NCBI GenBank assembly: GCA_041182245.1 | Contig: JBEGNZ010000010.1 | Coordinates: 3,252 to 67,251, forward strand | DNA: 64,000 bases | DNA from: Pseudomonadota bacterium | Lineage (GTDB): Bacteria > Pseudomonadota > Alphaproteobacteria > Caulobacterales > Caulobacteraceae | Direction: 5' to 3' | Notes under the pieces: model-generated | What the model was told of the DNA's origin: nothing | Seen by the model: the letters and a program-made list of their open reading frames with translations, nothing else | Database searches by the model: none | Translations under genes and position numbers: made by a program | In this document: positions 50,760-63,923 of the stretch, piece after piece | Position numbering within the stretch: position 1 is the stretch's first letter | Layout of the letters: each line of letters opens with the position of its first letter

Positions 50760-53687
50760 ATGACCAATAGATTCCGCCGCCAATCTCTTTTGGCGACCAC
50801 AATGATATGTGGTGTCGTCGCATCCTTGACTGCCATGCCCAGTCACGCGCTCGCTGCCGACACCAAGGCCGGCGAGGTTGAAGAGGTCGTGGTTACCGGG
50901 TCGCGCATTCCACAGCCCAATCTGATCACGACGAGCCCCGTCACTCAGGTCACGGCGCAGGACATTACCAGCGCTGGGGTGACCCGCGTTGAGGATATGG
51001 TCAATCAGCTGCCTCAGGCCTTTGCAGCGCAAAACTCAAACATTTCGAATGGCGCGTCAGGCACCGCAACGGTGAACCTTCGGGGCCTTGGCTCGGTTCG
51101 GACGCTGGTTCTGATCGATGGCCGCAGGATGCCCTACGGTTCGCCCAGCGAAACGGCTGCTGATATCAACCAGATCCCCGGGGGTCTGGTGGACCGGGTT
51201 GAGGTCCTGACCGGCGGTGCATCGGCTATCTATGGTTCTGACGCCTTGGCGGGCGTCGTCAACTTCATCATGAAGAAGGACTTCGAAGGTATTCGAGTCG
51301 ATGCCCAGTACGGCATGTTCCAGCATAACAATGATTATGATGGGCCCGGCGATCTGCGCAATGTGATTAAGGGGCGGGCAGCGACCAATCCGGCCCAATT
51401 TAAGTTGCCGGACGACAATGTCACAGACGGTATCAGCAAGGAAGTGACCCTGATGATGGGTGTTTCCTCGCCTGACAAGAAGGGCAATCTAACCGCCTAT
51501 GTGACCTATCGGAACAATGACAAGGTGCTTCAGGCGGATCGAGACTATTCTGCCTGCACCATCGGCAGCGCGACCGCAACGGTCTTTACTTGCGGCGGGT
51601 CGAGCACCTCGTTCCCGGGTCGATTCACCAATTTCTCCACCTTTAACTACACGCTCGATACAGCGACAAATAACTTCGTTCCCTTCGTCTCAGCGCGCGA
51701 TCAGTATAACTATGGCCCATTGAACTATTATCAGCGCCCGGACGAGCGCTACACGCTCGGTGCCTTCGGTCATTATGAGCTGAACGAGCATGCCGACATC
51801 TATACCCAGCTGATGTTTGCCGACTATTCGACTGTCGCTCAAATCGCGCCATCGGGTGATTTTGGGAACACCACGACGATCAACTGCGACAACCCGCTGT
51901 TGTCCGCCGGTCAAAAGACCGCAATCGGTTGCACCAGTGCCTTAATCACGTCTGGCGGTAAGGTCGACCTGACGATCCTTCGCCGCAATGTCGAGGGCGG
52001 TGGTCGCCAAGATGATCTGCGCTTCCAAAGTTATCGTCAGGTGATTGGTGCGCGCGGTGACATCGGTCAGGGTTGGAGTTACGACGTCTACGGTCAGTTT
52101 TCGCGCGTTCAACAGTCGCGAACCTATAATAATGATTTCTCTGTCTCGCGTCTGACCAAGGCGTTGGATGTGGTCAATGTTAATGGCGTGGCGACCTGCC
52201 GCTCGGTCGTCGATGGCAGCGATTCAGCCTGCGTTCCTTACAATATCTTCAAGGCGGGCGGTGTCACGCAAGCCGCGCTTGACTATGTTCAGATCCCGCT
52301 CGTTCAGACCGGCTTCACCACCCAGCAGGTGGTCAGTGGTACAGTCACAGGCGATCTGGGTGAATATGGTGTGAAGAGCCCCTATGCCGATAGCGGGGTT
52401 GCCGTGGTGCTCGGCCTTGAAATGCGCCGCGACGTCTTGAGCAAGACCGTCGATTCCGCCTTTGCGACTGGCGATGGTGCGGGTCAAGGTGGCCCCACCA
52501 AGGGTCTGAAGGGGACGACCCAAGTGCGTGAGTTCTTCACTGAAATCAGTGCGCCACTGGTCAGTGACAAACCCTTCGCTAAGCTGATTTCGCTCGATGC
52601 GGCCTACCGTAAATCAAGCTATTCGCGCGACATCGATACCGACACCTACAAGATCGGCGGTGACTGGGCCCCCGTGGAGGATATCCGCTTCCGGGCCAGC
52701 TATCAGCAGGCGGTTCGCGCGGCCAACGTGGTTGAACTGTTCTCTGCCCAAGCCGAAGGCCTGTTTGATCTGGCCGCTGACCCTTGCGGCGCGTCCAAGA
52801 CCGCAACCTTGGCCCAATGTACTGCGACCGGCGTTCCGGCGTCGTTCTATGGCAATGGCGCGGCCCTAGATAGCCCAGCCAACCAGTACAATCTGCTGAG
52901 TGGCGGCAACCCGAATCTCAAGCCTGAAGAATCGAAGACTAAGACCTTTGGTGTCGTGCTTGCGCCTCAATTCCTGCCGTCTTTCAACATGTCGATCGAC
53001 TATTTTGATATCGAGATTGAAAAGACCATTGCGAGCTTTGGCGCGGAAAACATTATTCTTGCCTGCTACAAGCTCAATCTGCCCTTTGCCTGTAACAGCA
53101 TCCATAGAAACGCCCTTGGACAACTCTGGACCAATCGCGGTTATGTTGATGACCTTACAACCAATATTGGTGCCTTGCAGACCACTGGTTATGATATCAA
53201 TGCTAACTACAAGCTGGACCTCGATCAGGTCGGCTTGAAGGGTATGGGTAATGTCGCCTTTAATCTGGTTGGGACCTATCTCGATAAGCTCGAGGTCACG
53301 CCCAACGCCGTCACACCCAAATATGATTGCGTTGGCTACTTTGGCAGCGTTTGCGGCACACCAAATCCGAAATGGCGTCACCGCGTCCGGGCCTCTTGGC
53401 AGAGCCCTTGGAATGCGGACCTGTCCCTGACCTGGCGTTATTACGATGAGGTTAAGCTTTACAACAATACGGCCCAGCGCGTGGATTCCAAGTTTGAGGC
53501 CCAGAACTATCTGGATATCTCAGGCGATGTGCGAGTCGGTGACACCACCAAGGTTCGCTTTGGTGTCAACAATGTCCTCGATCGGGATCCGCCCCTGTCG
53601 GCCAATGCGGGTAACGGCAACACCTATCCGCAGGTCTATGACGCCTTGGGTCGCTATCTCTTCATCGGCGTCACCAAGGATTTCTAA
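50760..53687 (+). CDS. TonB-dependent receptor (975 aa)
   Basis: Signal peptide ending HALAAD. Plug motifs VVVTGSRI, NLRGLG, IDGRR and VEVLTGGASAIYGSDALAGVVNFI. C-terminal ...GVTKDF. Confidence 0.9.
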   Translation: MTNRFRRQSLLATTMICGVVASLTAMPSHALAADTKAGEVEEVVVTGSRIPQPNLITTSPVTQVTAQDITSAGVTRVEDMVNQLPQAFAAQNSNISNGASGTATVNLRGLGSVRTLVLIDGRRMPYGSPSETAADINQIPGGLVDRVEVLTGGASAIYGSDALAGVVNFIMKKDFEGIRVDAQYGMFQHNNDYDGPGDLRNVIKGRAATNPAQFKLPDDNVTDGISKEVTLMMGVSSPDKKGNLTAYVTYRNNDKVLQADRDYSACTIGSATATVFTCGGSSTSFPGRFTNFSTFNYTLDTATNNFVPFVSARDQYNYGPLNYYQRPDERYTLGAFGHYELNEHADIYTQLMFADYSTVAQIAPSGDFGNTTTINCDNPLLSAGQKTAIGCTSALITSGGKVDLTILRRNVEGGGRQDDLRFQSYRQVIGARGDIGQGWSYDVYGQFSRVQQSRTYNNDFSVSRLTKALDVVNVNGVATCRSVVDGSDSACVPYNIFKAGGVTQAALDYVQIPLVQTGFTTQQVVSGTVTGDLGEYGVKSPYADSGVAVVLGLEMRRDVLSKTVDSAFATGDGAGQGGPTKGLKGTTQVREFFTEISAPLVSDKPFAKLISLDAAYRKSSYSRDIDTDTYKIGGDWAPVEDIRFRASYQQAVRAANVVELFSAQAEGLFDLAADPCGASKTATLAQCTATGVPASFYGNGAALDSPANQYNLLSGGNPNLKPEESKTKTFGVVLAPQFLPSFNMSIDYFDIEIEKTIASFGAENIILACYKLNLPFACNSIHRNALGQLWTNRGYVDDLTTNIGALQTTGYDINANYKLDLDQVGLKGMGNVAFNLVGTYLDKLEVTPNAVTPKYDCVGYFGSVCGTPNPKWRHRVRASWQSPWNADLSLTWRYYDEVKLYNNTAQRVDSKFEAQNYLDISGDVRVGDTTKVRFGVNNVLDRDPPLSANAGNGNTYPQVYDALGRYLFIGVTKDF

Positions 53688-53710
53688 GGCCTAAGCTATA
53701 GTTACCTCTG

Positions 53711-53745
53711 GGGGCGGCGAGTCACATCGGCTCGCCGCCCCTTTT
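53711..53745 (+). terminator. Rho-independent terminator after receptor 1
   Basis: GGGGCGGCGAG pairs with CTCGCCGCCCC (11 bp perfect, 9-nt loop), followed by TTTT. Confidence 0.8.
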
Positions 53746-53771
53746 GCTTCTCATCACATCGCCTTAACCAC

Positions 53772-54938
53772 ATGATCCAAAGTCCTAGCCACTCCGATAT
53801 CATGGCGAACGCCATGATGGCGCTTCAACAGGGAGACCCTGCAAAGGCCCTGAGGCTCTTGCAGGTTCTGCAGGACGTAGAGCCGAACAATCTCGACCTG
53901 ATGCTCAATGTGGCTTTGGCGCACCGGGTTGCTGGCAATCTGTCTACAGCGGTCGAGGTCCTGGACGCGGTGCTGGCCATCGACCCCTACCAATTTATGG
54001 CCCTTCTATCGAAGGCGGCAATCCTAGAGCGGTTGGGTCAGATGGCTCTGAGTGCCAAGACCTATGAGGCGGCCCTTGCCCTTGCACCGCCTGACGACCT
54101 GACGCCGCCAGCCTTGCAGGCCCCCATTGCCCATGGGCGACAGGTGTTGGCCCGTCGCGCAAAAGAGTTTTCTGACCATCTCGAAACACGATTAGCCAAG
54201 GCGCGAGCCGATCTGTGTGCGGCTCAAACTGCGCGGTTTGATCATTGTCTCGACATCTTTGTCGGTCGCAAGAAGGTCTATGTGCCTCAGCCGCTTCTGA
54301 TGCATTTTCCCGGCCTTCCGGTGATCCAGTTCTTTGACCGCCACCTGTTCCCTTGGTTGCCGCAGCTTGAAGCGGCGAGCGACATCATACGCGCAGAAAT
54401 GCTGGCCCTCCGTGCTGGGGAGTCTGACCCGTTTGCGCCCTATATTGCCTTTCCGCCCGGTGCGCCGGTAAACCAATGGGCGGACCTAAACCATTCGCGC
54501 GATTGGACCTCCTTTTGGCTGTGGAAGGACGGCGTGCGGCAAGAGGGGGCCTGCGCCCTCTGTCCTCAGACCGCGAAGATCCTTGAAGCCTTACCGCTGG
54601 CCCATCAGCCCGACTTTGCCCCCACGGTGGTGTTCTCGTCCCTGCAGGCCCATACCCACATTCCACCCCACACGGGATCGAGCAATGCGCGGCTCTTGGT
54701 TCATCTGCCCCTAGACCTGCCCGGGCCCGCTCGCTTTCGGGTCGGCAATGACGAGCGGTCTTGGCAGATGGGTCAGGCTTGGGTCTTTGATGATACGATT
54801 GAACATGAGGCATGGAATGATGCCGATGCGGTGCGCACCATCCTCATCTTTGACGTCTGGAACCCCTATCTGACCGTTGAGGAGCGTGAGCTTGTTTCAA
54901 TCATGATGGCCGCAAAGAATGAATTTATGGCCCGCTAG
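53772..54938 (+). CDS. TPR-repeat protein fused to an aspartyl/asparaginyl beta-hydroxylase-like (AspH/LpxO family) domain
   Basis: N-terminal TPR-like helices. C-terminal HIPPHTGSSNARLLVHLPL...RVGNDERSWQMGQAWVFDDTIEHEAWN...FDVWNP. No signal peptide. Confidence 0.8.
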   Translation: MIQSPSHSDIMANAMMALQQGDPAKALRLLQVLQDVEPNNLDLMLNVALAHRVAGNLSTAVEVLDAVLAIDPYQFMALLSKAAILERLGQMALSAKTYEAALALAPPDDLTPPALQAPIAHGRQVLARRAKEFSDHLETRLAKARADLCAAQTARFDHCLDIFVGRKKVYVPQPLLMHFPGLPVIQFFDRHLFPWLPQLEAASDIIRAEMLALRAGESDPFAPYIAFPPGAPVNQWADLNHSRDWTSFWLWKDGVRQEGACALCPQTAKILEALPLAHQPDFAPTVVFSSLQAHTHIPPHTGSSNARLLVHLPLDLPGPARFRVGNDERSWQMGQAWVFDDTIEHEAWNDADAVRTILIFDVWNPYLTVEERELVSIMMAAKNEFMAR

Positions 54939-54948
54939 TCGAATGGCC

Positions 54949-56586
54949 CTACCAGATCGCCTCACCCTCATGGTCGACAAAGCCGTCGGCTTCGAGGGCG
55001 GCGCGGAGGGGTTCTAGCTGTTGGCGATAGCGCTTCCATGCGCCCATGCCTTGGCGGTTGATTGGACTGCGGACCTGGGCCGAGCTGGCGGTGGAGACAC
55101 CTCGGTCAGACCGTTCCGGGCTTAGGCAGGCCGCCTCGAAGGTCAGGCGACAGCCGGTCAGCAGGACGCGAATCTGTGCTTCGGGATCATTGATCAAGGC
55201 CTCGAGCGTGATCTCAATAAGATTTGCGCCCACGATTTGGCGCCAATGGTCGGTCAGTTGGCGATAGAGCCGATAGTTGTCGGCCAGATCCTTCAGGCTA
55301 TAGGACCAAGGATAGGCTCCCCCGCCAAACAGCAGCCGGTAGGTGCCAAACAGGCTGTCCATCGGTGATCGGCGGACATGGACCATGGGCGCGGAGGGGA
55401 AGGCGTAGTTGAAATGGCCAACATAGAGATAGTTGTGCGGCAGTTTCTCGGTAAAGACCGGCGATCCATCCCTTAGATAGGCGGTAAAGTGCAGATAGGC
55501 CTGCGCCATCGCCTCGGGATCAGCCTTGGCGGCCGCTGCCATGACGGTGGGCGATAGGGGATCTGCGCGGGGGGTCTGTGAGGCTACGGCCACGGCCCTT
55601 TGCAGGCCGGTGGTTTCGCCGAGGGCTTGAACCTGACTGTGCGAGGATAGGATGGTCTCGACCAAGGTTGTGCCGGATCGCGGCAGGCCAAAGATCAAGA
55701 TCGGTTGCGCCGGGGTCTGGTTCGGCGTTGGGCGCGGTGCGGCAGCCTGAGGAAAGGCGGTGATCAGGGTTTGGGTAACGATTTGGCGCTCAGTAAGCGA
55801 AAAGGGCGATAGGGTTCCTGCTGTCTTTGACGCCTGTTCGAGCAGGGGCCAAGCCCGTTCTGGTTCGCCAAGGTCATCGTGAACCTTGAACAGGGCATAG
55901 CCCATCCGGGCCGCCGCTTCGCTGGTCGCGGATACCGCACCAAGCTGCCTTTCCAGCGCCATGGCCGGGTGATCGTGCTTGGTCCAGCGACGCAGGGATG
56001 CGAGGGCGGCGAAGAGATGGTCCTCTAGACCATCGCAGCGTCCGGCTAAGGCCGCCTCATAGCGCTGTCTGGCAAGGTCCAATCGGCCCATGAACCGATC
56101 AATATTGCCCAAAAGCAGAAGGGACTGGGCATCATCGGGCAGGGCGCTGACCGCCTCGTGGGCCAGACCCTCTGCCTCGCTAAACAGCCCTGCAATGGTC
56201 AAGGCGGTGGCGACCACGCGCTTGGCCTGGGGCGACAACAGATCGAGCGCGGCGGCCTGCCGGGCCTGAGCTACGGCCTCATCCATCTTGCCGAGATTGG
56301 CCAGGGCCAGCGCCCGATCCGCAGCCAGATCGGCGTGAAAGGGATCGGAGACGGGGAACTGTCTCATGGCCATGGCCATAGCCTTTTCCGCATCGCCGCT
56401 ACCAATGCCGGTTAGGGCTGAGCAGAGCAGAGACCAGGCCTCTTTGGACTTCGGGGCCTGCCGGGTGACCGCCTCGGCCGCGCGACCCGCCGCTTCCCAG
56501 TCCTTGCGCAGCAGGGCTTGGCCGCCCCTGTCGAGCAGGGCCGCAAGGTCTGGCCTGATCTGGCCTCGAACATCGGTCACGGTCAT
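54949..56586 (-). CDS. TPR-repeat protein fused to a sulfotransferase domain
   Basis: PAPS 5'-phosphosulfate-binding-type loop IFGLPRSGTTLVETILSSH. N-terminal TPR helices. The ATG at 56586 has AAGGA 8 nt upstream; the track start at 56640 abuts the terminator U-tract. Confidence 0.8.
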   Translation of the reverse strand: MTVTDVRGQIRPDLAALLDRGGQALLRKDWEAAGRAAEAVTRQAPKSKEAWSLLCSALTGIGSGDAEKAMAMAMRQFPVSDPFHADLAADRALALANLGKMDEAVAQARQAAALDLLSPQAKRVVATALTIAGLFSEAEGLAHEAVSALPDDAQSLLLLGNIDRFMGRLDLARQRYEAALAGRCDGLEDHLFAALASLRRWTKHDHPAMALERQLGAVSATSEAAARMGYALFKVHDDLGEPERAWPLLEQASKTAGTLSPFSLTERQIVTQTLITAFPQAAAPRPTPNQTPAQPILIFGLPRSGTTLVETILSSHSQVQALGETTGLQRAVAVASQTPRADPLSPTVMAAAAKADPEAMAQAYLHFTAYLRDGSPVFTEKLPHNYLYVGHFNYAFPSAPMVHVRRSPMDSLFGTYRLLFGGGAYPWSYSLKDLADNYRLYRQLTDHWRQIVGANLIEITLEALINDPEAQIRVLLTGCRLTFEAACLSPERSDRGVSTASSAQVRSPINRQGMGAWKRYRQQLEPLRAALEADGFVDHEGEAIW

Positions 56587-56640: not shown

Positions 56641-56675
56641 AAAAAAGGGGCGGCAGAGGATGTCTCTGCCGCCCC
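56641..56675 (-). terminator. Rho-independent terminator after receptor 2
   Basis: On the minus strand, GGGGCGGCAGAG pairs with CTCTGCCGCCCC (12 bp perfect, 5-nt loop), followed by TTTTTT. Stem and loop resemble the terminator at 53711. Confidence 0.8.
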
Positions 56676-56700
56676 AATTCTTTAGTCGACTGGCTTCAGA

Positions 56701-59700
56701 TTAGAAGCGCAGACGTGCCGCGACGTTGAACGTACGGCCAAGGACGCGATAGACCTGTGGGTCCGTGTTGCCCTGGCTGAACACGCCAGCGATGAACTGC
56801 GGGGGATCCTTGTCCAACAGGTTACCGATGTTGGCGTTCAGTTGCAGGTTGTCATTGACGTTCCAACGACCGGAAAGATCGATGTAGCTGGCGGCTTCGG
56901 TCTTTGGCAGAACCAGACCATAGTCGGCATTTTCATCGGTCATTTCAGGTGTGTAGGTCCAGCGAGCCTGCACCATCCAGTCACCCAACTGATACGAACC
57001 GGTCATGACCGACTTGTACTCAGGTGTGGAACCGCTGATGCCTGCGTCGGTGTAACCCTTACGCTCAACGCCGTTGGTGGCGTAGCTGTCAAGGATCGAG
57101 ATCAGGGCGTTGAACGAGATACGTCCAGGGGCACCCTTGATTGCTTCACCGAGGTCAAAGCGATAGTCGCCTTGAATATCGAAACCCTTGGTGACGATTT
57201 CCGACAGGTTGGCGATCGAGGTGTTGATGCTGTCGATTTGACCGGTAACGGCATTACGCGTGATCTTGGCGCATTCGTTAGCCTGCAGGCTGACATAGCA
57301 ACGGCTGAGAACAGTACTGGCACCGATGGAGCCCACTGCGTCCTCAATCTTGATGTCAAAATAGTCTACGGACATCTTCAGATCGCCAACAGGCAGGAAG
57401 GTCGGTTGGAACACAACACCAGCGGTGAAGGTCTTGCCCGTTTCCGGCTTCAAGTTCGGGTTACCGAACGAAAGGGCCTGAACCTGGCTGTTGTTGGCCG
57501 CAAAGCCGGTAAAGCTGACACCTGGCGCTTGCGCGTTACAGATGGCCAGAATAGCGGCCGTACGGTTAGCCGAGTCGCGGCAAGGGTCCGTGTAGGACGG
57601 GAAGCCCTGGTCACCGTTCTGGAACAGTTCGAACACGCTTGGGGCGCGAACGGCCTTGTTGTAGACGGAACGGAACTTCAGCCAATCAACCACGGCCCAC
57701 TCGCCACCGACCTTGTAGGTTTCGGTCGAGCCAATGGTGTCATAGTCCGAATAGCGATAGCCGCCTTCGAGGCCGACATATTTGGCGAAGGGAAGGTCCT
57801 TCACCAAGGGAACGCCGACTTCGCCGTACAGTTCCTGTACAACCACCGAACCGCGCTGGTTTTGGATGGCGTTGAAGCCATAGATGTTGGCAGACGCTTG
57901 GGCAGCGTCCACATCCAAGGCCGCGCGGGATTCGCGATATTCATAACCGAGCACGGTCGAGACCGGGCCAGCAGGCAGTTGGAAGGCATCGCCACGCACG
58001 AAGGCCGCCAAACGACGCTCTTCATAGGTGTTGAGCTGATGCGTATCGGTGCGCAGGAACTTCACCGCTTCGGCAGACAGCTTGTTCTGGCCAAAGATGT
58101 CGGTGATCACGCAGCCAGGAAGGGCTGCAGCCGTATTTGCAGGTCCAGGAACGCCGAGCGACGTCGTGGAGCCGGAAACGGGCGCCTGACAGCCGGAAAG
58201 GCCTTGACCAATCGCAGTCTTGTTCAGGTTGTTGCGCAGCGTCTGAGCGAAGTGGGTGCGTCCATAGGTGCTGGTCGCGCTCCAGTTCCAGTTGTCGTTG
58301 ATCTCGCCGTCCAAGGTGGCCAGCAGGGTCAAGGATTGGTTCTCATATTCACCAACCCGCGGGCCGAGCTGCAAGGAGCGCCAGTCCATCGTGAAGTTCG
58401 CCGTTGGGTTCGGACGCGAAGCCAGAGCAGCGGCCAAATCGGGGTGAGCCGAATTGATGTAGGACTGCATGGCCGAGGTCAGAACAACGGTCAGGCCCGT
58501 CGCTGGCGTTGCGGCCAGCTGAACGCCTGAACGGCTGTCGATGTAAGAAATTTGCGTCTTCAGCTTCAGCTTTGGATTGATCTGATAGGAACCAAAGCTG
58601 CTGATCGCATAACGTTCGGCAGGGATAATGATGTTGTTGGTGGGCGCATAGTTATAACGCGACGAACCGGCAGCGCGGTCAGGAACCGAACAGGCTTTTG
58701 ATATGAAGCGTGGGGTCAGCTTGCCCGCATCGTTGAACGACAGGCTACCTGTGTTGACGGCAACGCCTGGCGTGGCGGCATTACAGTCGGTGTCCGCTGC
58801 TGCGAACTGAGCCGAAGTGGCTGGGTTGCTGGCCAGCAAACGGAAGGGGTTTGCGGCGTTGTTCGCGATCCAGCCCCAAGGTGGGGTGCCCGAACCGCCC
58901 GAAGCGAAGGTATAGAGGGGGGTCTTGGCGTTCTGAGCATTCCACTCTGCAGCGCTGTCGATGACATAGCCATTGTAGCTGGAGTCATAATAGGCCCCGG
59001 CCGAAACCCGCGACCAATCGAACTCGCTCTGCAGGACCGGGTCGCGCTTATAGTAAGACGCGTACATGGTCATGTTACCCTTGCCATTGGCAAAGTTACC
59101 GCCAAGCAGGCCTTCGAGGTTGAAGTCCTTGGCCAGTCGGCCATCCATGCTGCCGCCGGTTTGAGCGGAGATTTCAGCGCCTTCGTAATTGTCCTTCAGC
59201 ACGAAGTTGACAACGCCGGCCATAGCGTCCGAGCCGTAAACGGCCGAGGCACCACCAGTGAGGACTTCGATACGGTCGATCAGACCGGCTGGGATGGTGT
59301 TCAGGTCAACCACGCCGGTGGTCGAAGAACCGGGGACGCGTTCGCCATTGACCACGACGAGCGTACGGTTTGCACCGAGGCCGCGAAGGTCGATCGTCGC
59401 AAAGTCTTCGCCGCCCGAATTGTTGGAGGTGACGGTGTTACCCGGAACGATCTGTGGCAGTTCGTTCAGCAGCTGCTCAACCGCGATGGTACCGGTCAGC
59501 TTCAGTTGCTCGCTGCCGACGGTGGCAACGGGGCTGGTGGCCACGAAGTCTTTGCGCTGCAAGCGCGAACCGGTGACGACGATTTCGGTAACTTCGGTAT
59601 CAGAATTTGCAGCGTCTTGAGCGTAGGCAGGCGCAGCGAAGATCGCTAGCGCACCGCACAACATCGTTGACGCCATAACGCGTCCGCGGGTTGAGCCAAT

Positions 59701-59706
59701 TTTCAT
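56701..59706 (-). CDS. TonB-dependent receptor (1001 aa), paralogue of 50760..53687
   Basis: Signal peptide ending PAYAQD. Plug motifs IVVTGSRL, DLRGLG, VNGERV and IEVLTGGASAVYGSDAMAGVVNFV. C-terminal ...AARLRF. Confidence 0.9.
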   Translation of the reverse strand: MKIGSTRGRVMASTMLCGALAIFAAPAYAQDAANSDTEVTEIVVTGSRLQRKDFVATSPVATVGSEQLKLTGTIAVEQLLNELPQIVPGNTVTSNNSGGEDFATIDLRGLGANRTLVVVNGERVPGSSTTGVVDLNTIPAGLIDRIEVLTGGASAVYGSDAMAGVVNFVLKDNYEGAEISAQTGGSMDGRLAKDFNLEGLLGGNFANGKGNMTMYASYYKRDPVLQSEFDWSRVSAGAYYDSSYNGYVIDSAAEWNAQNAKTPLYTFASGGSGTPPWGWIANNAANPFRLLASNPATSAQFAAADTDCNAATPGVAVNTGSLSFNDAGKLTPRFISKACSVPDRAAGSSRYNYAPTNNIIIPAERYAISSFGSYQINPKLKLKTQISYIDSRSGVQLAATPATGLTVVLTSAMQSYINSAHPDLAAALASRPNPTANFTMDWRSLQLGPRVGEYENQSLTLLATLDGEINDNWNWSATSTYGRTHFAQTLRNNLNKTAIGQGLSGCQAPVSGSTTSLGVPGPANTAAALPGCVITDIFGQNKLSAEAVKFLRTDTHQLNTYEERRLAAFVRGDAFQLPAGPVSTVLGYEYRESRAALDVDAAQASANIYGFNAIQNQRGSVVVQELYGEVGVPLVKDLPFAKYVGLEGGYRYSDYDTIGSTETYKVGGEWAVVDWLKFRSVYNKAVRAPSVFELFQNGDQGFPSYTDPCRDSANRTAAILAICNAQAPGVSFTGFAANNSQVQALSFGNPNLKPETGKTFTAGVVFQPTFLPVGDLKMSVDYFDIKIEDAVGSIGASTVLSRCYVSLQANECAKITRNAVTGQIDSINTSIANLSEIVTKGFDIQGDYRFDLGEAIKGAPGRISFNALISILDSYATNGVERKGYTDAGISGSTPEYKSVMTGSYQLGDWMVQARWTYTPEMTDENADYGLVLPKTEAASYIDLSGRWNVNDNLQLNANIGNLLDKDPPQFIAGVFSQGNTDPQVYRVLGRTFNVAARLRF

Positions 59707-59793: not shown

Positions 59794-59807
59794 CTATCGT
59801 ACGATAG
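59794..59807. promoter_or_regulatory. Perfect 14-bp palindrome CTATCGTACGATAG upstream of receptor 2
   Basis: Read directly. 88 to 101 nt upstream of the start codon at 59706. Confidence 0.45.
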
Positions 59808-59979
59808 TTTCCACTATTGATACCTGAGGTGCGGGGTCAACCGTAAGGTCACAAAATGGTCACTGTTACGTCATGCCTGTCGCATAATCGCAACGGTTCC
59901 GGGCGTACATTCCAGGCTAAGGGGCATGTCTCACCTTGAGCCTGCCCTTTTGAGGATATTTCGTCTGACTGTGCGGGAT

Positions 59980-61638
59980 CTATGCCCGACGCTGCGGTTT
60001 CGTCTCGTCCTGTTGGGGCTCAGTTTCGGGTAGGACATCAAAGGCGAGGCTCATTCGGCCAGCCTCTCCGCCAAAGGGGACGGTTCCGTGCCACATATAG
60101 GATGGAAAGAGGGCCAGAAGCCCAGATTTGGGTTGAATGAAATGGCCCGCCTCTAGGGTCGGGGCGGTCGGCGTTGGCGGGGCACCAAGCCGAAGCCAGC
60201 CTTCCTGCCGGTCGGTCGCCTGCACCTGCGGCGGTACCTCGGCATAGAAGGCCGACGAGATCCAACCGTTGGGATGGATATGATCCACGTGAAAACCTTG
60301 TGGTCTCAGCCGGACGGACCAAGCCTCGTCGATCCGATGCTCCCCAACATTGCGACGCCTTAGCAGGTCTGGGCCTTGGCCAAGGTGATTGCGATAGGTC
60401 AGGATCGGGCCCTTGATGGCTTGGAAGAAGGCGGCAATCACAGGGTCGTCGCTGGTGACCAGATTATGCGAGGTTTGCGAACCGCCCCGGATTGACTGTT
60501 CAATCGGGTGAGCCTTGAGCAGATGGACGCTGTTGAGGGATGAGCGCAAGTCATCCAGAAAATCAGTGAGGTGCGTCCAGCCCGCCGGGCAGTCGATCAT
60601 CAGGGCCTGAACCACTGCGGGATAGTTATAGAGATCGCCCAATCGGGGATCGCCGCTCAGCCGCCAGGCGCTGGTCAGGTCGGCAATAGCTTGCTGGTCG
60701 CACGGTTGCTCTGCGACCAGTTCCGCAGCGAGGTCTGCGGCCGCCTTAGCTTCGCCCAGCGCCAATAGGGCTTGAATGACGGCCTTTTTGGGCAGTCGCT
60801 CGCCTGGAAAGCGGGCCACCAACTGCTGGGCTATGGCCAGAGCGTCCGCGGGATTGTCCTTTAAGAGAAGCCAGCTCATTTCAAGAGCTAAGCGCGGGTC
60901 CTGCCCGATGGCAGCAATCTCGGTTCTGGCCAAGGCCAGCGCAGCGGCCTCACCATGGATGTGGCTGAGTAAGCGCAGCTTGACCAACAATAGATCGCTC
61001 TGTCCCTTTGACCGTGTGAGGGCCTGATCGACGGGGGCGAGGGCAGCAGCGGCATCACCGGTCGACATCCAGATCAGGTGACTAAGGTCACGCAGTGCCT
61101 CGGCATAGTTCGGGCGAAGCGAAAGAGCCGCTTCAAAGGCCTGTTTGGCACGATCAAATTGCCGAAGGCCTTGCAGGCCCCGGCCAAGGATGAGGAGCGT
61201 TTCCGGGGCCCGGCCGCCAAGCCGCAAGGCCCGCTCGGCTTCGGCGACGGCATCCTGATCTCGGCCAAGATCAGCAAAGCCTGCGGCAACATTGTGGGCG
61301 GCAATCGGATCATGGGCGGCGAGCTTGGCAGCGGCTTGGTACTGGACCAGAGACCCTCTCTTATTGCCTAGGGCCTTTAGTGCAGCCGCCCGCAGAGATT
61401 GGAGTTCAAAGCTTGCCCCCTCCTTGCGACAAAAGGGCCGCAGAAGGGTTTCGGCCTCGTCGGCCGCGCCCTTCGCCAAGAGTATCTCGGCGAGAAATTC
61501 GGCGGCGGGAGCACAGCCCCGTTCACGCTTGAGCAATTGGCGGCAAGCCTGCTCCGCCTGGCCCAGATGACCGGCTTGAATAAGGGCTTGGATCGCATTC
61601 AGATTTTGCGCGGTGGCCGCTGACAAAGGCCGGGTCAT
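59980..61638 (-). CDS. TPR-repeat protein fused to a putative 2OG-Fe(II) oxygenase domain (TIGR02466-like)
   Basis: C-terminal HVDHIHPNGWISSAFYAEVP ... LFPSYMWHGTVPF. Long N-terminal TPR region. No signal peptide. Confidence 0.75.
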   Translation of the reverse strand: MTRPLSAATAQNLNAIQALIQAGHLGQAEQACRQLLKRERGCAPAAEFLAEILLAKGAADEAETLLRPFCRKEGASFELQSLRAAALKALGNKRGSLVQYQAAAKLAAHDPIAAHNVAAGFADLGRDQDAVAEAERALRLGGRAPETLLILGRGLQGLRQFDRAKQAFEAALSLRPNYAEALRDLSHLIWMSTGDAAAALAPVDQALTRSKGQSDLLLVKLRLLSHIHGEAAALALARTEIAAIGQDPRLALEMSWLLLKDNPADALAIAQQLVARFPGERLPKKAVIQALLALGEAKAAADLAAELVAEQPCDQQAIADLTSAWRLSGDPRLGDLYNYPAVVQALMIDCPAGWTHLTDFLDDLRSSLNSVHLLKAHPIEQSIRGGSQTSHNLVTSDDPVIAAFFQAIKGPILTYRNHLGQGPDLLRRRNVGEHRIDEAWSVRLRPQGFHVDHIHPNGWISSAFYAEVPPQVQATDRQEGWLRLGAPPTPTAPTLEAGHFIQPKSGLLALFPSYMWHGTVPFGGEAGRMSLAFDVLPETEPQQDETKPQRRA

Positions 61639-61841
61639 TGGCGTGGATGTTCGCTAATCATCTCGTGATCATCCGCGAATGGTTTCAAACAAGTCAATAT
61701 GTTGAGCCGAAAATTCAGTCCGAAATTTATATTAGGATCAGCTAAACTATAATCGGTTTGGTTGTTAAACTAATTTAACTGGAGAACGTCCCCGCAATAG
61801 TTCATTTTAAATAGGAACCCGAAATACAACCTAGGTGAGCC

Positions 61842-63923
61842 ATGATGAACCGGTTAAATGCCCCTTCTTTCCGACTTGCGCACTGGTTCGTCGCCCTGAC
61901 CCTAGCTTGGGTGCCCACCATCGCCTCTGCTCGGGTGCCAATTGATGAGTTGGTGGGCTATGGCGAAGTCCGCAGTCCCGTGATCTCAAAGGACGGGGTT
62001 CACCTCGCAGCCATTCGGCGTGAGGCCGTGGGCGATGTCCTGATCCTTGCCGACCTAAAGACCGGCGACATCAAGCCTGTTCATGTCGCGCGTGCCGATC
62101 AGAACATGCAGCTGGGCTTTGTCCGTTTTAAGGGCAATGGCCGTCTGGTCTTTAGCTTTAGCCAGCGGATTCACGTCGTGCCGGGCTCTGGCGGTGTGAA
62201 AAAGACGGAAATTGTCGAAGACGGCTTCATCAATGTTGGGCGGGTCTATTCGAGTAATCTCGACGGATCGGACCTGATCTCACTCTACGATCCCTCATCG
62301 CAGCAGGGTTATCCGCGTACGGTGAGCACGCGGGTGGTCAGCCTGCTTGAACAGTCTGAAACCGACGTTCTGATCGTCGCCCCGAAGGCGGGAGGCTCAG
62401 AGCTTTGGAAGGTCAATGTTCGCGACGGCAAGCGCGAGATTGTTGATCGCGGTCAGGACAATACCTTCAACTGGGTGGTCGACAGCGACGGTGTGCCCGT
62501 CCTGCGTCAGGACGTCATTGCTGGCGGTAAGGGCTTTATGTGGTCGCGGCGCGCGCGCGGTGAGCAGGACTGGAAGGAAGTGGTTCGCTTCCGGGGTGCA
62601 GAGGGGGCCAATTCAGGTCCAACCTTTGTGGGTGAGGGGCCGACCGACAAGCCCGGTCAGGCCTTTGTTCTGGCCCGCAAGGATGGCGACGACACCTCCG
62701 GTCTCTATCGCTATGACACCAATACCGGCACCTATCTCGAAACCCTACAGACAGTGGCCGGTCATGACGTGACCGACTCCCTGATCAATCCTTATAATAA
62801 TAAGCTTCTGGCCGCCTGCTGGCTGGCCTATCGGGTCGCGTGCGAGCCTAAGGACCCTGCCTTTGGCCGCCAATGGACCGCGCTCAATCGGGCCCTTGGT
62901 GACAAGGTCAATGTGCAACTGACCAGCATTGGCGGGGCGGATATGGACCAATGGATCGTCCAAACCAACGGTCCAAAGGATCTTGGCACCTACTATCTGT
63001 TTGACCTGAAGGCCAAGCGGTTAGAGGTCCTGTTCCAACAGCGTCCCAATGTGGCCGAGGCTGATCTGCCTGACGAACAGGTACTGGAATATACCACCAG
63101 CGATGGCCAGAAGCAGTGGGGCTATCTGTGGACCCCGCCCGGCATCACGGACATCAAGAACCTTCCGACCGTGATTGTGCCTCACGGGGGTCCTGAGGGC
63201 CGCGACATTTGGGGTTTTGACCCGATGGCCACGACCTTGGCCAGTCAGGGCTATGCGGTGTTCCAGCCCAACTTCCGAGGCGGCGGCGGCTTTGGTCGCA
63301 AGTTTGTAGAGGCAGGCCATGGTCAGTGGGGCGAGCGGATGCAGGAGGATGTGGCCGACGCCACGCGCAACCTGATCGCCCAAGGCATAACCGATCCCAA
63401 GCGGATCTGCGTCTTTGGCTGGTCCTATGGCGGCTATGTGGCCATGACCGCGAGCTACAAAAATAAGGACCTGTTCAAGTGCGCGGTGGCGGGCGCGGGT
63501 GTCTCTGACCTTGTCGAGATGCAGCGCTGGGTTCGAGACGGCACCACCAACAAGAAAGAGGTCATATCGGGCGGCGGCAGCGGCGCGCAGAGCATGACCT
63601 ACAAATATTGGCTGCAGGCCATCGGCGATCCGGAAAAGGTGCGGGATCGCTTGATCAGCAATTCGGCGGCCCGCAACGCTGCTTCTGTGGGCATGCCGCT
63701 ACTATTGATCCATGGCGACAAGGACCAGACCGTGCCGATTGAGCAGAGCCAACTGATGCAAAGGGCCATGGAAAAGGCTGGCAAGCCCGTCAGGCTGCTG
63801 GCCGTCAAGGATACGGATCATTATTTCACCCCTATGCAGGGTCCGGCTTGGAAGACGATCCTGACCGAGGCCACCGCCTTTATCGGTCAGAATATTGGCC
63901 CGGGGGTCGAGCCCGCGAAATAG
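61842..63923 (+). CDS. Secreted S9-family serine peptidase (prolyl oligopeptidase/dipeptidyl peptidase type)
   Basis: Signal peptide ending IASA, N-terminal beta-propeller-like region, nucleophile elbow GWSYGGY, and late D...H (VKDTDHYF). Confidence 0.85.
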   Translation: MMNRLNAPSFRLAHWFVALTLAWVPTIASARVPIDELVGYGEVRSPVISKDGVHLAAIRREAVGDVLILADLKTGDIKPVHVARADQNMQLGFVRFKGNGRLVFSFSQRIHVVPGSGGVKKTEIVEDGFINVGRVYSSNLDGSDLISLYDPSSQQGYPRTVSTRVVSLLEQSETDVLIVAPKAGGSELWKVNVRDGKREIVDRGQDNTFNWVVDSDGVPVLRQDVIAGGKGFMWSRRARGEQDWKEVVRFRGAEGANSGPTFVGEGPTDKPGQAFVLARKDGDDTSGLYRYDTNTGTYLETLQTVAGHDVTDSLINPYNNKLLAACWLAYRVACEPKDPAFGRQWTALNRALGDKVNVQLTSIGGADMDQWIVQTNGPKDLGTYYLFDLKAKRLEVLFQQRPNVAEADLPDEQVLEYTTSDGQKQWGYLWTPPGITDIKNLPTVIVPHGGPEGRDIWGFDPMATTLASQGYAVFQPNFRGGGGFGRKFVEAGHGQWGERMQEDVADATRNLIAQGITDPKRICVFGWSYGGYVAMTASYKNKDLFKCAVAGAGVSDLVEMQRWVRDGTTNKKEVISGGGSGAQSMTYKYWLQAIGDPEKVRDRLISNSAARNAASVGMPLLLIHGDKDQTVPIEQSQLMQRAMEKAGKPVRLLAVKDTDHYFTPMQGPAWKTILTEATAFIGQNIGPGVEPAK

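What the first reader, a model, noticed from the sequence alone, without database searches (positions are those of the whole stretch)
50760..63923. Uncharacterised cluster: two paralogous TonB-dependent receptors interleaved with three cytoplasmic TPR-fused tailoring enzymes plus a secreted S9 peptidase
Seen: the gene order is TPR-2OG oxygenase (61638..59980, minus), receptor 2 (59706..56701, minus), TPR-sulfotransferase (56586..54949, minus). These converge on TPR-Asp/Asn beta-hydroxylase-like (53772..54938, plus) and receptor 1 (50760..53687, plus). An S9 peptidase (61842..63923) is divergent from the 2OG oxygenase. None of the three enzymes has a signal peptide, and each has a long N-terminal TPR region. 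Established: TPR modules usually bind peptide or protein ligands. AspH-family enzymes hydroxylate Asp/Asn in proteins (LpxO hydroxylates lipid A acyl chains). Bacterial sulfotransferases include RaxST, which sulfates a secreted peptide. Inference: the three enzymes may jointly modify an unidentified peptide, protein or small-molecule substrate whose uptake or recycling uses the two receptors. I know of no described function for this combination. I found no convincing small precursor ORF in the intergenic regions.
Basis: partly seen in the sequence, partly recalled or inferred. Interest (0 to 1): 0.7.

Follow-up and report, generated by a model that had tools for sequence, protein, structure and literature searches.

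The report
Outer-membrane receptors paired with cytoplasmic tailoring enzymes
Two large outer-membrane nutrient receptors are each genetically coupled to cytoplasmic enzymes resembling the human enzymes that sulfate tyrosine and hydroxylate aspartate in proteins; this pairing recurs in hundreds of proteobacterial genomes and its purpose is unknown.

Summary
That part holds two oligopeptide-type ABC permeases, a small secreted Cys-loop protein and a family-5 solute-binding protein.

The association is far above chance. In 75 genomes anchored on the TPR-sulfotransferase, 65% have a TonB-dependent receptor (TBDR) as direct neighbour, against about 5% expected. In the more divergent half of the AspH-anchored metagenome loci, TBDRs lie within three genes in 63%, TPR-sulfotransferases in 56% and TPR-2OG oxygenases in 19%, in many gene orders.

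The unit is a receptor-plus-enzyme cassette. In a near-identical relative (flanks 97-99% identical), receptor 1 and its AspH-like partner are replaced together. The breakpoints lie just after the TonB box and about 33 codons before the AspH stop.

The catalytic motifs are intact: TPST-like, human-AspH-like and cyanophage-type 2OG oxygenase.

The closest studied analogue is the Caulobacter CciT-CciO pair (PiuA-PiuC, Fiu-YbiX), whose mechanism is also unsolved.

My best guess (about 0.4) is that the enzymes process the peptide-like cargo of the coupled transporter. The main rival is modification of the receptor itself before export. A self-made secreted peptide is less likely, because I found no precursor, core-synthesis or exporter gene.

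The parts
46437..48265 (+). Two oligopeptide-type ABC permease genes (46437-47354, 47351-48265). They are a conserved upstream part of the locus and have no adjacent ATPase gene.
   Evidence: Pfam BPD_transp_1, BPD_transp_1_N and OppC_N. The same order is seen in L001, L003, L008 and L089.
48282..48848 (-). Small secreted protein (188 aa) with a signal peptide and the Cys-loop motif C-x11-C-[YF]-D (here CRATTDAAARLACFD). Function unknown; a recurrent member of these neighbourhoods.
   Evidence: Translation. tblastn to the unannotated genes of L001, L003 and L005. An in-session HMM finds it in 36 loci. Its only Pfam match is a sub-threshold hit to the VasI N-terminus.
48901..50526 (+). Periplasmic solute-binding protein, family 5 (oligopeptide, dipeptide or glutathione type).
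   Evidence: Pfam SBP_bac_5, 2.5e-90. It lies directly upstream of the receptor in L001, L003, L018 and L089.
50760..53687 (+). TonB-dependent receptor 1 (975 aa), partner of the AspH-like enzyme.
   Evidence: Pfam Plug + barrel. Orthologues in L089 (84%) and L020 (44%) are each followed by an AspH-like gene.
50910..54840 (.). Swappable cassette: receptor 1 from just after its TonB box to about 33 codons before the AspH stop. This segment is replaced in the close relative L008.
   Evidence: blastn shows 93% and 90% identity on either side and none inside. Boundaries come from sliding identity. Proteins inside are 34% and 44% identical, against 97-99% for flanking genes. In L089, receptor 1 has dS 1.26 against 0.41-0.51 in the flanks.
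53710..53742 (+). Terminator-like GC-rich hairpin with a T-rich tail, between receptor 1 and the AspH-like gene.
   Evidence: 14-bp stem with 11 GC pairs; sequence read.
53772..54938 (+). Cytoplasmic TPR-fused Asp/Asn beta-hydroxylase-like 2OG oxygenase (388 aa).
   Evidence: PF05118, 4.8e-41. Human AspH oxygenase domain at 1e-30. The invariant HxG...H and Arg are as in AspH.
54949..56586 (-). Cytoplasmic TPR-fused sulfotransferase (545 aa), similar to protein-tyrosine sulfotransferases; partner of receptor 2.
   Evidence: PF13469, 3.8e-35. Profile against PDB gives TPST1 at 8.5e-14 over the whole domain. The alignment keeps PRSGTT, the GE(T/E)T Glu, Lys and S-x-Q-V-x-x-P-I-N. AF2 pLDDT 88.5; the best sulfotransferase folds are the TPSTs.
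56647..56675 (-). Terminator-like hairpin (readable on both strands) followed by T6, between receptor 2 and the sulfotransferase gene.
56701..59706 (-). TonB-dependent receptor 2 (1001 aa), with its own Shine-Dalgarno sequence and promoter-like site upstream.
   Evidence: Pfam. Orthologues at 47-97% identity in L001, L003, L005, L008, L009 and L012 are all next to sulfotransferase orthologues. Upstream sequence.
59980..61638 (-). Cytoplasmic TPR-fused 2OG-Fe(II) oxygenase (552 aa) of the PF13759 / cyanophage type.
   Evidence: PF13759, 1.5e-23. Invariant H-x-D...H and R-x-x-x-A-F-D. AF2 pLDDT 91.4, with whole-chain matches to human AspH and P3H1. 25-30% identity to cyanophage and pelagiphage 2OG oxygenases.
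61842..63923 (+). Secreted S9 (prolyl-oligopeptidase family) serine peptidase, divergent from the 2OG oxygenase gene across a 203-bp region with promoter-like sites on both strands.
   Evidence: PF00326, 9.8e-43. Signal-like N-terminus. Recurs beside the sulfotransferase or 2OG oxygenase in L005, L009, L011, L012, L013, L087 and L123. Promoter-like sites.

Best explanation
The region is a set of receptor-plus-enzyme cassettes inserted in a peptide-uptake locus.

Shown:
- Each large TonB-dependent receptor is genetically coupled to its own cytoplasmic enzyme: receptor 1 to a TPR-AspH-like hydroxylase, receptor 2 to a TPR-TPST-like sulfotransferase.
- A TPR-fused cyanophage-type 2OG oxygenase, a secreted S9 peptidase, a secreted Cys-loop protein and an oligopeptide-type SBP/permease set are recurrent accessories.
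- The enzyme genes are intact, under purifying selection, lack signal-peptide-like N-termini and keep their catalytic residues.
- The receptor and its enzyme are inherited and exchanged together.

Inferred mechanism, to which I commit at about 0.4:
1. The receptors bring a peptide-like cargo across the outer membrane.
2. The periplasmic S9 peptidase and the SBP/permeases pass it inward.
3. The TPR arrays then hold the extended peptide for side-chain chemistry in the cytoplasm, where PAPS, 2-oxoglutarate and Fe(II) are available. That chemistry is beta-hydroxylation of Asp/Asn, a second 2OG-dependent oxidation, and transfer of sulfate to a hydroxyl group (or its removal).
4. This processing is what makes uptake through that particular receptor productive or safe, by activating, neutralising or trapping the cargo.

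This is the same logic the literature proposes for the 2OG dioxygenases PiuC, YbiX and CciO next to PiuA, Fiu and CciT. The chemical identity of the cargo and the benefit of the modification are not established.
For: Domain and catalytic evidence:
-.

Coupling to transport:
- A TBDR is the direct neighbour of the TPR-sulfotransferase in 49 of 75 genome loci. TBDRs make up 12 of 453 genes (2.6%) five or more genes away.
- About 28 of those pairs lie in one conserved operon: MocR, CN-hydrolase, TBDR, ST, beta-lactamase-like, MFS, aminotransferase, aldehyde dehydrogenase.
- About 20 further pairs lie in other contexts. One is a bare TBDR->ST pair in Asticcacaulis. A Pseudoalteromonas plasmid adds another bare pair.
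- Where no TBDR is adjacent, the sulfotransferase sits beside inner-membrane importers (NCS1 permease, MFS), their regulators, aminotransferases and hydrolases. It therefore tracks uptake and catabolic modules rather than the receptor protein as such.

Peptide theme among neighbours:
- SBP_bac_5/OppBC, S9, S49, M14, M20, S15 and retropepsin-like proteases.

Cassette behaviour:
-.

Evolutionary rates:
- TPR modules evolve faster than the catalytic domains.
- The enzymes have a higher dN/dS than their flanks: 0.12-0.16 against 0.03-0.075.

Link to the experimental precedent:
- YbiX/PiuC-type dioxygenases (NCBIfam 189 bits, above cut-off) recur in the same neighbourhoods.
- CciT strictly and specifically needs cytoplasmic CciO. 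CciT protein is still made without it (PMC12004947).
- PiuC and YbiX are proposed to metabolise the imported substrate (PMC12004943).
Against: - No biochemical reason is known for sulfating or hydroxylating an imported peptide, and PAPS-dependent sulfation is costly for catabolism.
- The cargo is inferred only from neighbouring genes.
- Enzymes with different chemistries occupy the same slot behind orthologous loci: AspH in the window and L089, sulfotransferases in L001 and L003. That is odd if the chemistry were dictated by one cargo.
- Strong terminator-like hairpins separate each receptor from its enzyme gene, so co-transcription is not assured.
- Each enzyme family has stand-alone members far from any transporter.
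- The loci sampled are the best 80 hits of each scan. Genes were called with a crude in-session method, and many metagenome contigs are short.
Confidence: 0.4

Rival explanations
1. Receptor-side modification. The TPR enzymes post-translationally modify the adjacent receptor itself, or the co-encoded secreted Cys-loop protein, on the unfolded precursor in the cytoplasm before Sec export. This would add sulfotyrosine or hydroxy-Asp/Asn to tune ligand binding or to evade phages and bacteriocins that use the receptor.
For: - The TBDR is the one gene that recurs next to the sulfotransferase across at least ten different contexts.
- All the enzyme families are homologues of protein side-chain modifiers, with a TPR + catalytic architecture like AspH, P3H1, OGT and SPY.
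- The receptor barrel and the enzyme's TPR part are swapped together, while the signal peptide and TonB box stay.
- The arrangement of an abundant receptor gene, a terminator, then the enzyme gene fits a catalyst acting on a structural protein.
- CciT is made but non-functional without CciO, and the phenotype is cell-autonomous in pooled Tn-seq (PMC12004947).
- From memory: dedicated bacterial modifying enzymes such as HMW1C, TibC and Aah act in the cytoplasm on exported adhesins encoded next to them.
Against: - To my knowledge, no sulfated or hydroxylated bacterial outer-membrane protein is known.
- No Asp/Asn or Tyr column distinguishes receptors next to AspH from those next to the sulfotransferase beyond two columns that could be phylogenetic noise.
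- The Tyr of the Cys-loop motif is Phe in the window and in Hyphomonas although a sulfotransferase is present.
- The TPR part diverges much faster than the receptor: 55% against 84% in L089.
- The sulfotransferase also sits next to inner-membrane permeases with no TBDR present.
Confidence: 0.2
2. Self-made product. The enzymes tailor an endogenous peptide or siderophore-like metabolite, which is released and then recaptured through the receptors, as in methanobactin-type systems.
For: - The three enzymes co-cluster with TBDRs in many gene orders.
- Iyer et al. predicted siderophore-like products for TonB-receptor, dioxygenase, halogenase and sulfotransferase neighbourhoods (PMC2938197).
- One of the models for CciO is that it synthesises CciT's ligand.
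- From memory: methanobactin operons combine a TBDR (MbnT), a family-5 binding protein (MbnE) and a sulfotransferase (MbnS).
Against: - No precursor ORF, NRPS or other core-synthesis enzyme, and no exporter, recurs in about 165 loci.
- Intergenic gaps are too small to hold one, for example TBDR-ST gaps of 5-130 bp.
- The only recurrent small protein is a roughly 150-residue Sec-exported protein.
- Many TBDR-ST pairs stand alone or lie inside a catabolic operon.
- No Fur box or riboswitch was found.
Confidence: 0.15
3. No specific coupling. The enzymes modify unrelated housekeeping proteins, and their proximity to receptors reflects TBDR-rich genomes and hitch-hiking in variable regions.
For: - The closest large group of AspH homologues (about 55% identity) sits next to gltBD and citrate synthase with no TBDR.
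- A Brevundimonas 2OG-oxygenase homologue sits between rluD-like and ATP12 genes.
- Hirschia plasmid pHbal01 carries a sulfotransferase with no TBDR nearby.
Against: - 65% observed adjacency against about 5% expected.
- Orthologous receptor-enzyme pairs are kept through rearrangements.
- The receptor and its enzyme are replaced together as one block.
- The quartet recurs in different gene orders.
Confidence: 0.1
4. Export rather than import. The large receptors move a modified secreted protein (the Cys-loop protein or the S9 peptidase) outward across the outer membrane, as the TBDR Oar does for the protease PopC in Myxococcus.
For: - Secreted proteins with Sec signals recur in the neighbourhood.
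- A TBDR-dependent protein secretion precedent is cited in PMC12004943 (its reference 26).
Against: - Pfam finds only Plug and barrel domains in both receptors.
- The Cys-loop protein is present in only part of the loci.
- The locus also carries inward transport components, SBP and permeases.
Confidence: 0.05

Closest known systems
CciT-CciO of Caulobacter crescentus, and PiuA-PiuC / Fiu-YbiX (TBDR + adjacent cytoplasmic 2OG/Fe(II) dioxygenase)
   Same: An outer-membrane TonB-dependent receptor gene lies directly beside a gene for a cytoplasmic 2OG oxygenase related to protein hydroxylases. The pair is co-conserved across Proteobacteria. The receptor's function strictly and specifically needs the enzyme, and the mechanism is unknown (PMC12004947, PMC12004943). 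YbiX/PiuC-type genes recur in the same neighbourhoods as the TPR enzymes.
   Different: The window's enzymes belong to other families (AspH-like PF05118, PF13759, TPST-like PF13469) and carry N-terminal TPR arrays. The receptors are about 1000 aa and match the NCBIfam Fiu model only weakly or not at all. No Fur box is present. The neighbours point to peptides, not iron.
TonB-receptor neighbourhoods with tryptophan halogenase, SapC, JmjC and Syn9-gp52-like 2OG oxygenases (Iyer, Abhiman, de Souza & Aravind 2010)
   Same: The same taxa (alpha- and gammaproteobacteria). A TonB-class receptor lies next to amino-acid side-chain-modifying enzymes, including the cyanophage gp52-type 2OG oxygenase. Sulfotransferases are mentioned in some versions (PMC2938197).
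   Different: No halogenase, SapC or JmjC gene is present here. The TPR-sulfotransferase/TBDR pair and the TPR-AspH/TBDR pair were not singled out or quantified in the passages retrieved, and cassette exchange does not appear in them. Their prediction was synthesis of a siderophore-like metabolite.
Human AspH, TPST1/TPST2, collagen P3H1 and OGT/SPY (eukaryotic protein-modifying enzymes)
   Same: The catalytic domains are homologous: AspH at 1e-30, and TPSTs are the best sulfotransferase match by sequence profile and by fold. The TPR-plus-catalytic-domain layout matches AspH, P3H1, OGT and SPY.
   Different: The bacterial proteins lack signal peptides and so are presumably cytoplasmic, not ER or Golgi luminal. 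No EGF-like substrate consensus was found nearby. The substrates are unknown.
Methanobactin operons (MbnT TBDR, MbnE family-5 binding protein, MbnS sulfotransferase) and RaxST-RaxX (recalled from memory, not tested here)
   Same: A sulfotransferase that acts on a ribosomal peptide, combined (for methanobactin) with a TBDR and a family-5 periplasmic binding protein for re-uptake.
   Different: No precursor gene, MbnB/C-type maturase or dedicated exporter is present in the window or the related loci.
Lasso-peptide clusters with an Atxe2-type S9 isopeptidase and a TBDR in Caulobacterales and Sphingomonadales
   Same: An S9 peptidase lies next to a TBDR in the same bacterial orders.
   Different: The S9 protein scores 54.6 bits against a cut-off of 400 for the lasso isopeptidase model. 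None of the recurrent neighbour families annotated here is a lasso-peptide maturation enzyme.

Membership tests
Protein-tyrosine sulfotransferase-like sulfotransferases (Pfam PF13469) | Score above the family threshold, and the 5'-PSB (PRSGTT) and 3'-PB PAPS-binding motifs | tested here: met
   122.6 bits against a cut-off of 27. GLPRSGTTL and R406 are invariant in 18 homologues. The alignment to TPST1 keeps both motifs.
Protein-tyrosine sulfotransferase-like sulfotransferases (Pfam PF13469) | TPST catalytic residues (Arg, Glu base, Lys, Ser) and the TPST fold | tested here: met
   R303, E324, K381 and S501 are conserved and align with TPST1. Foldseek's best sulfotransferase matches are TPST1, TPST2 and tick TPST, with TM 0.57-0.68 on the target.
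Protein-tyrosine sulfotransferase-like sulfotransferases (Pfam PF13469) | Sulfates tyrosine in a peptide or protein | not testable with these tools
   No substrate is identified. The Tyr of the Cys-loop protein is Phe in the window although the sulfotransferase is present.
Aspartyl/asparaginyl beta-hydroxylase family (PF05118; human AspH type) | Family score, the two-His iron site with Gly in place of the carboxylate (HxG...H), and the 2OG-binding Arg | tested here: met
   140.7 bits against a cut-off of 22.6. Human AspH at 1e-30. H300-T-G302, H345 and R355 are invariant in 11 homologues.
Aspartyl/asparaginyl beta-hydroxylase family (PF05118; human AspH type) | Substrate with the EGF-type consensus C-x-[DN]-x4-[FY]-x-C | tested here: not met
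   No such consensus was seen on visual reading of the receptor sequences or in the Cys-loop protein motif, C-x11-C-[YF]-D; no pattern scan was run. Lipid hydroxylases score far below cut-off: OlsC 82.9 against 450, LpxO 53.8 against 500.
PF13759 2OG-FeII_Oxy_5 / TIGR02466 (cyanophage-type 2OG oxygenases) | Family thresholds and the H-x-D...H triad | tested here: inconclusive
   PF13759 is met: 83.5 bits against 27. TIGR02466 is not met: 40.4 against 62.5. The HVD...H and Arg motifs are invariant. Identity to phage 2OG oxygenases is 25-30%.
TBDR + cytoplasmic dioxygenase partner pairs (CciT-CciO / PiuA-PiuC / Fiu-YbiX) | Receptor gene directly adjacent to, and co-conserved with, a cytoplasmic 2OG oxygenase gene | tested here: met
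   Receptor 1 -> AspH with an 84-bp gap. The pair is kept in L089, L020 and L049 and is swapped as one block in L008.
TBDR + cytoplasmic dioxygenase partner pairs (CciT-CciO / PiuA-PiuC / Fiu-YbiX) | Enzyme of the PRK05467 (YbiX/PiuC) family, receptor of the Fiu/PiuA clade, Fur control | tested here: not met
   The window's enzymes belong to other families. No Fur box within 3 mismatches. YbiX-type genes occur only in related loci.
TBDR + cytoplasmic dioxygenase partner pairs (CciT-CciO / PiuA-PiuC / Fiu-YbiX) | Receptor function depends on the enzyme | not testable with these tools
   Needs genetics.
RiPP / methanobactin-like or RaxX-RaxST-like peptide tailoring clusters | A precursor peptide gene plus core maturase and exporter | tested here: not met
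   There is no conserved small ORF in the intergenic regions. No recurrent precursor, maturase or exporter family appears among clustered neighbours of 160 loci.
Lasso-peptide isopeptidase clusters | S9 protein reaching the Atxe2 model cut-off | tested here: not met
   54.6 bits against 400.

The most novel reading that the evidence does not exclude
The TPR enzymes sulfate and hydroxylate the outer-membrane receptor itself, or its secreted Cys-loop partner, in the cytoplasm before Sec export. Receptor-enzyme cassettes would then be a way to diversify chemically a surface protein that is both a nutrient gate and a phage/bacteriocin receptor. The same logic would explain why CciT, PiuA and Fiu need their neighbouring dioxygenases.
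Probability: 0.2. Interest if true: 0.9.

Novelty: new variant of a known kind. Interest (0 to 1): 0.62.

Why it matters
TonB-dependent receptors are the main high-affinity nutrient gates of Gram-negative bacteria. They are also the entry route for siderophore-antibiotic conjugates, bacteriocins and phages.

It has only just been shown that one such receptor needs a neighbouring cytoplasmic dioxygenase, and nobody knows why.

This locus shows that the partnership is much broader:
- It includes a tyrosine-sulfotransferase-like and an AspH-like enzyme, each with a peptide-binding TPR arm.
- Receptor and enzyme are exchanged as one cassette between close relatives.
- The TBDR-sulfotransferase pair is found in at least hundreds of species.

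Because the homologous human enzymes leave defined mass signatures (+80 Da on Tyr, +16 Da on Asp/Asn), these variants make the open question directly testable by mass spectrometry on cargo, receptor or cell proteins.

Either outcome would be new: a cytoplasmic cargo-processing step required for uptake, or the first sulfated or hydroxylated bacterial outer-membrane protein.

Tried and rejected
- **Riboswitch or other RNA element** that would name the cargo: only one sub-threshold chance hit.
- **Fur box:** none.
- **Small precursor ORFs:** only short, unconserved ORFs in the 273-bp gap upstream of receptor 2. No recurrent small family was found apart from the secreted Cys-loop protein.
- **Cys-loop protein as sulfation substrate:** the motif Tyr tended to be present when a sulfotransferase was nearby. 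However, the window and Hyphomonas have Phe together with a sulfotransferase, so I dropped the idea.
- **Receptor as substrate:** comparing 9 AspH-adjacent with 16 ST-adjacent large receptors gave only two discriminating Asp/Asn columns and no Tyr column. That is not convincing, and the loops align poorly.
- **Shared TPR module:** the three TPR regions share only generic repeat similarity, so there is no sign of a common ligand.
- **Lasso isopeptidase, LpxO/OlsC lipid hydroxylase and TIGR02466 membership:** all below cut-off.
- **Literature:** searches combining sulfotransferase, TPR or halogenase with TonB-dependent receptors found only PMC2938197 as relevant. The PiuC/YbiX search found the 2025 Caulobacter papers.
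- **Failed look-ups:** the P0117 look-up returned nothing, and the Ralstonia megaplasmid record had no annotation.

Full report
**1. What is in the sequence**

Pfam assigns the following:

| Coordinates | Strand | Domains |
|---|---|---|
| 50760-53687 | + | Plug + TonB-dependent barrel |
| 53772-54938 | + | N-terminal TPR + Asp_Arg_Hydrox |
| 54949-56586 | - | TPR + Sulfotransfer_3 |
| 56701-59706 | - | Plug + TonB-dependent barrel |
| 59980-61638 | - | TPR + 2OG-FeII_Oxy_5 |
| 61842-63923 | + | Peptidase_S9 |

- The receptors are 31.5% identical over their whole length.
- The enzymes have no signal-peptide-like N-terminus and the S9 peptidase has one. This is by inspection, since no predictor was available.
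- The source is an uncultured alphaproteobacterium. The identical proteins are on record from a MAG labelled Pseudomonadota, and the nearest relatives are Caulobacteraceae and Hyphomonadaceae.
- The rest of the window is unrelated: a VirB-type secretion system and fatty-acid and other metabolic genes.

**2.

The locus continues upstream, and this part is conserved with the receptor in relatives. It holds:
- two OppBC-type permeases (46437-48265);
- a 188-aa secreted protein on the minus strand (48282-48848) with the Cys-loop motif C-x11-C-[YF]-D;
- a family-5 solute-binding protein (48901-50526).

Both receptor genes are followed within 25 bases by strong terminator-like hairpins with T-rich tails, at 53710-53742 and 56675-56647. 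These lie before the AspH-like and sulfotransferase genes. Receptor 2 has its own Shine-Dalgarno sequence and a promoter-like site. The 2OG oxygenase and the S9 peptidase diverge from a 203-bp region with promoter-like sites on both strands. I found no Rfam element and no Fur box.

**3. The enzymes look catalytically competent and polypeptide-directed**

*Sulfotransferase.* A profile of 18 homologues matches human TPST1 and TPST2 over the entire catalytic domain (8.5e-14 and 5e-12), ahead of every other sulfotransferase in the PDB. The pairwise alignment conserves the PRSGTT loop, the Glu of GE(T/E)T, the Lys, the 3'-phosphate Arg and the S-x-Q-V-x-x-P-I-N segment. The AlphaFold model is confident (pLDDT 88.5, pTM 0.88). 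Its best sulfotransferase neighbours by fold are again the TPSTs, and the TPR half resembles the OGT and SPINDLY TPR superhelix.

*AspH-like protein.* It matches the human AspH oxygenase domain at 1e-30. It keeps the unusual HxG...H iron site and the 2OG-binding Arg.

*Third enzyme.* It keeps H-x-D...H and Arg. It is 25-30% identical to cyanophage and pelagiphage 2OG oxygenases. Its confident model (pLDDT 91.4) aligns as a whole chain with human AspH and collagen P3H1, which are both TPR-plus-oxygenase protein hydroxylases.

*Selection and TPR divergence.* All three genes are under purifying selection: dN/dS is 0.12-0.16 for the ST and OG5 against L008 and 0.09 for AspH against L091. The rate for the ST and OG5 is two to four times that of the flanking genes, 0.03-0.075. 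In every comparison the TPR part diverges faster than the catalytic part. The three TPR modules share only generic repeat similarity.

**4. The association with receptors is real**

I analysed the best 80 loci. I used six-frame ORFs, an iterated in-session TBDR profile and a crude gene caller.
- 47 of 80 loci have a TBDR ORF within 400 bp. In 40 of them the receptor is directly upstream on the same strand, with gaps of about 5-130 bp.
- By gene adjacency the figure is 49 of 75 (65%). TBDRs make up 2.6% of genes five or more positions away, so about 5% adjacency is expected by chance.

The events are not all independent.
- About 28 pairs lie in one conserved operon: MocR-type regulator, CN-hydrolase, TBDR of about 800 aa, TPR-sulfotransferase, beta-lactamase-like hydrolase, MFS, class-III aminotransferase, aldehyde dehydrogenase.
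- About 20 pairs lie in other contexts. These include a bare TBDR->ST pair in Asticcacaulis, and a Pseudoalteromonas plasmid adds another bare pair.
- The roughly 800-aa receptors next to sulfotransferases form a subfamily marked by a P-[YF]-[NS]-[IL]-[ST] plug motif: 34 of 37, against 6 of 23 non-adjacent ones.

**5. The three enzymes do co-occur**

An AspH-anchored scan of metagenome contigs found at least 595 relatives, and I analysed the best 80. They fall into two populations.
- Homologues at 49-57% identity mostly stand alone. In isolates they sit after gltBD, next to citrate synthase.
- The more divergent half is clustered. Among the 27 loci of at least 6 kb, within three genes of AspH there is a TBDR in 63%, a TPR-sulfotransferase in 56%, the Cys-loop protein in 37%, a second AspH in 26% and the TPR-2OG oxygenase in 19%.

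The full quartet occurs, in different gene orders, in L008, L020, L091, L112, L122, L140, L147 and L157.

Other recurrent neighbours are a YbiX/PiuC-type dioxygenase (189 bits, above the NCBIfam cut-off), a retropepsin-like protease, SppA-type S49 peptidases and DUF192.

Of three 2OG-oxygenase homologues checked, two sit beside large TBDRs together with M14 and M20 peptidases. One sits in an unrelated context.

**6. The unit is a receptor-plus-enzyme cassette**

- Receptor 2 orthologues (47-97% identity) in six lineages are always next to sulfotransferase orthologues, whether co-directional or convergent.
- Receptor 1 orthologues are followed by AspH in L089 (84% and 69%) and L020 (44% and 43%).

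The MAG contig L008 gives the clearest evidence. Its flanking genes are 97-99% identical at the protein level and about 90-93% at the DNA level. Yet it has no DNA similarity to the window between about 50910 and 54840. That is from just after the TonB box of receptor 1 to about 33 codons before the AspH stop. The proteins encoded there are only 34% and 44% identical.

In L089 the receptor 1 gene has dS 1.26 against 0.41-0.51 for its flanks, and AspH is saturated.

In the orthologous slot behind the SBP gene, other lineages carry a receptor 2-type gene with one or two sulfotransferases instead. Receptor and enzyme are therefore inherited and replaced together.

**7. What it most likely does**

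The literature library holds no description of a TBDR/TPR-sulfotransferase or TBDR/TPR-AspH pair.

Two sources are close.
- Iyer et al. (PMC2938197) noted TonB-type receptors next to tryptophan halogenases, SapC, JmjC and Syn9-gp52-type oxygenases, sometimes with sulfotransferases. They predicted a siderophore-like product.
- Hernandez-Ortiz et al. (PMC12004947) showed that the Caulobacter receptor CciT strictly and specifically requires the adjacent cytoplasmic dioxygenase CciO, a PiuC/YbiX homologue. CciT is still made without CciO, the phenotype shows in a pooled screen, and the mechanism is unknown. The companion paper favours metabolism of the imported substrate.

I place the present locus in that class as a new variant.

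*Which polypeptide is modified?* I lean to the cargo (0.4) for three reasons.
- The neighbourhood is dominated by peptide-handling genes.
- When no TBDR is adjacent, the sulfotransferase sits beside inner-membrane importers, regulators, aminotransferases and hydrolases. This ties it to what is transported rather than to the receptor protein.
- I found no residue in the receptors that tracks the type of partner enzyme.

*The receptor-side reading* (0.2) remains attractive. The receptor is the single most frequent neighbour, enzymes of different chemistry can fill the same slot, and the swapped block pairs the barrel with the TPR arm.

*A self-made secreted product* (0.15) lacks any precursor, core enzyme or exporter.

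*Pure coincidence* (0.1) is contradicted by the statistics and the cassette exchange.

*Outward protein transport* (0.05) has little support.

**8. Limits**

- The loci analysed are the top 80 of each scan, so they are biased towards relatives of the query.
- Gene calling and the TBDR and Cys-loop profiles were built in-session.
- Many metagenome contigs are short.
- Signal peptides were judged by eye.
- No experiment bears directly on these enzyme types.
- The analogies to methanobactin, RaxST, HMW1C/TibC and SftP-AtsK are from memory and were not tested.

**9. Verdict**

This is a new variant of a recently recognised but mechanistically unexplained kind of system. It is of real interest because its enzyme chemistry makes the open question testable.

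Noticed in passing
window 48282-48848 (-); also L001 3684-4820, L003 18243-19422, L005 15171-15719 and 30 other loci: An unannotated family of secreted proteins of about 160-190 aa. It has a signal peptide, an N-terminal Cys loop C-x11-C-[YF]-D (usually with ...RLxC[YF]D) and a conserved C-terminal G-S-[FY]-x-[ML]...R-V-x-R. It recurs next to large TBDRs and AspH-like genes. Its only database match is a sub-threshold hit to the first 25 residues of the T6SS protein VasI.
   Followed up: partly
L078 4569-17403, and about 28 other genome loci (for example L021, L047, L071, L077): A conserved eight-gene operon in Alpha- and Gammaproteobacteria. Its order is: MocR-type regulator, CN-hydrolase, TBDR of about 800 aa, TPR-sulfotransferase, beta-lactamase-like hydrolase of about 700 aa, MFS transporter, class-III aminotransferase, aldehyde dehydrogenase. 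It looks like an uptake and catabolic pathway for an unknown amide or amine compound, with a sulfotransferase in the middle.
   Followed up: partly
TBDRs of about 800 aa next to sulfotransferases, for example L007 7479-9935 and L078 7480-9828: These receptors carry a P-[YF]-[NS]-[IL]-[ST] motif (typically D-V-P-Y-N-I-S) in the first plug strand just after the TonB box. It is present in 34 of 37 ST-adjacent receptors against 6 of 23 other small TBDRs in the same loci. It may be only a subfamily marker; the conserved Tyr is unexplained.
   Followed up: partly
window 46437-50526: The OppBC-type permeases and the family-5 binding protein have no ABC ATPase gene beside them. Directly upstream on the other strand are an MBL-fold protein (44997-45890) and a BLH_phosphatase/DUF442 protein (about 45915-46325). 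This arrangement is conserved in L001, L005 and L089.
   Followed up: no
window 33-9681: A 5'-truncated TBDR ORF at the window edge (33-1772) is followed by a VirB/Trb-type type IV secretion gene set: SLT transglycosylase, VirB4/TrbE, TrbL/VirB6, CagX/VirB9, TrbI/VirB10 and a VirB11-type ATPase.
   Followed up: no
window 54840-54938, compared with L008 11648-11750: The last roughly 33 codons of the AspH-like gene are nearly identical between the window and L008, although the rest of the protein is only 44% identical. One recombination breakpoint therefore lies inside the gene and produces a chimeric C-terminus.
   Followed up: yes
L088 8001-9170 and L090 8001-9161: The largest and best-conserved group of TPR-AspH homologues (about 55% identical to the window protein) sits immediately after the glutamate synthase genes gltD-gltB and next to two citrate synthase genes in Phenylobacterium and Caulobacter. 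No receptor is nearby. This suggests a separate, possibly housekeeping, substrate for that subgroup.
   Followed up: partly
window 15642-16805: A stand-alone C-5 cytosine DNA methyltransferase gene lies between a thiolase gene and a PLP-dependent enzyme gene.
   Followed up: no
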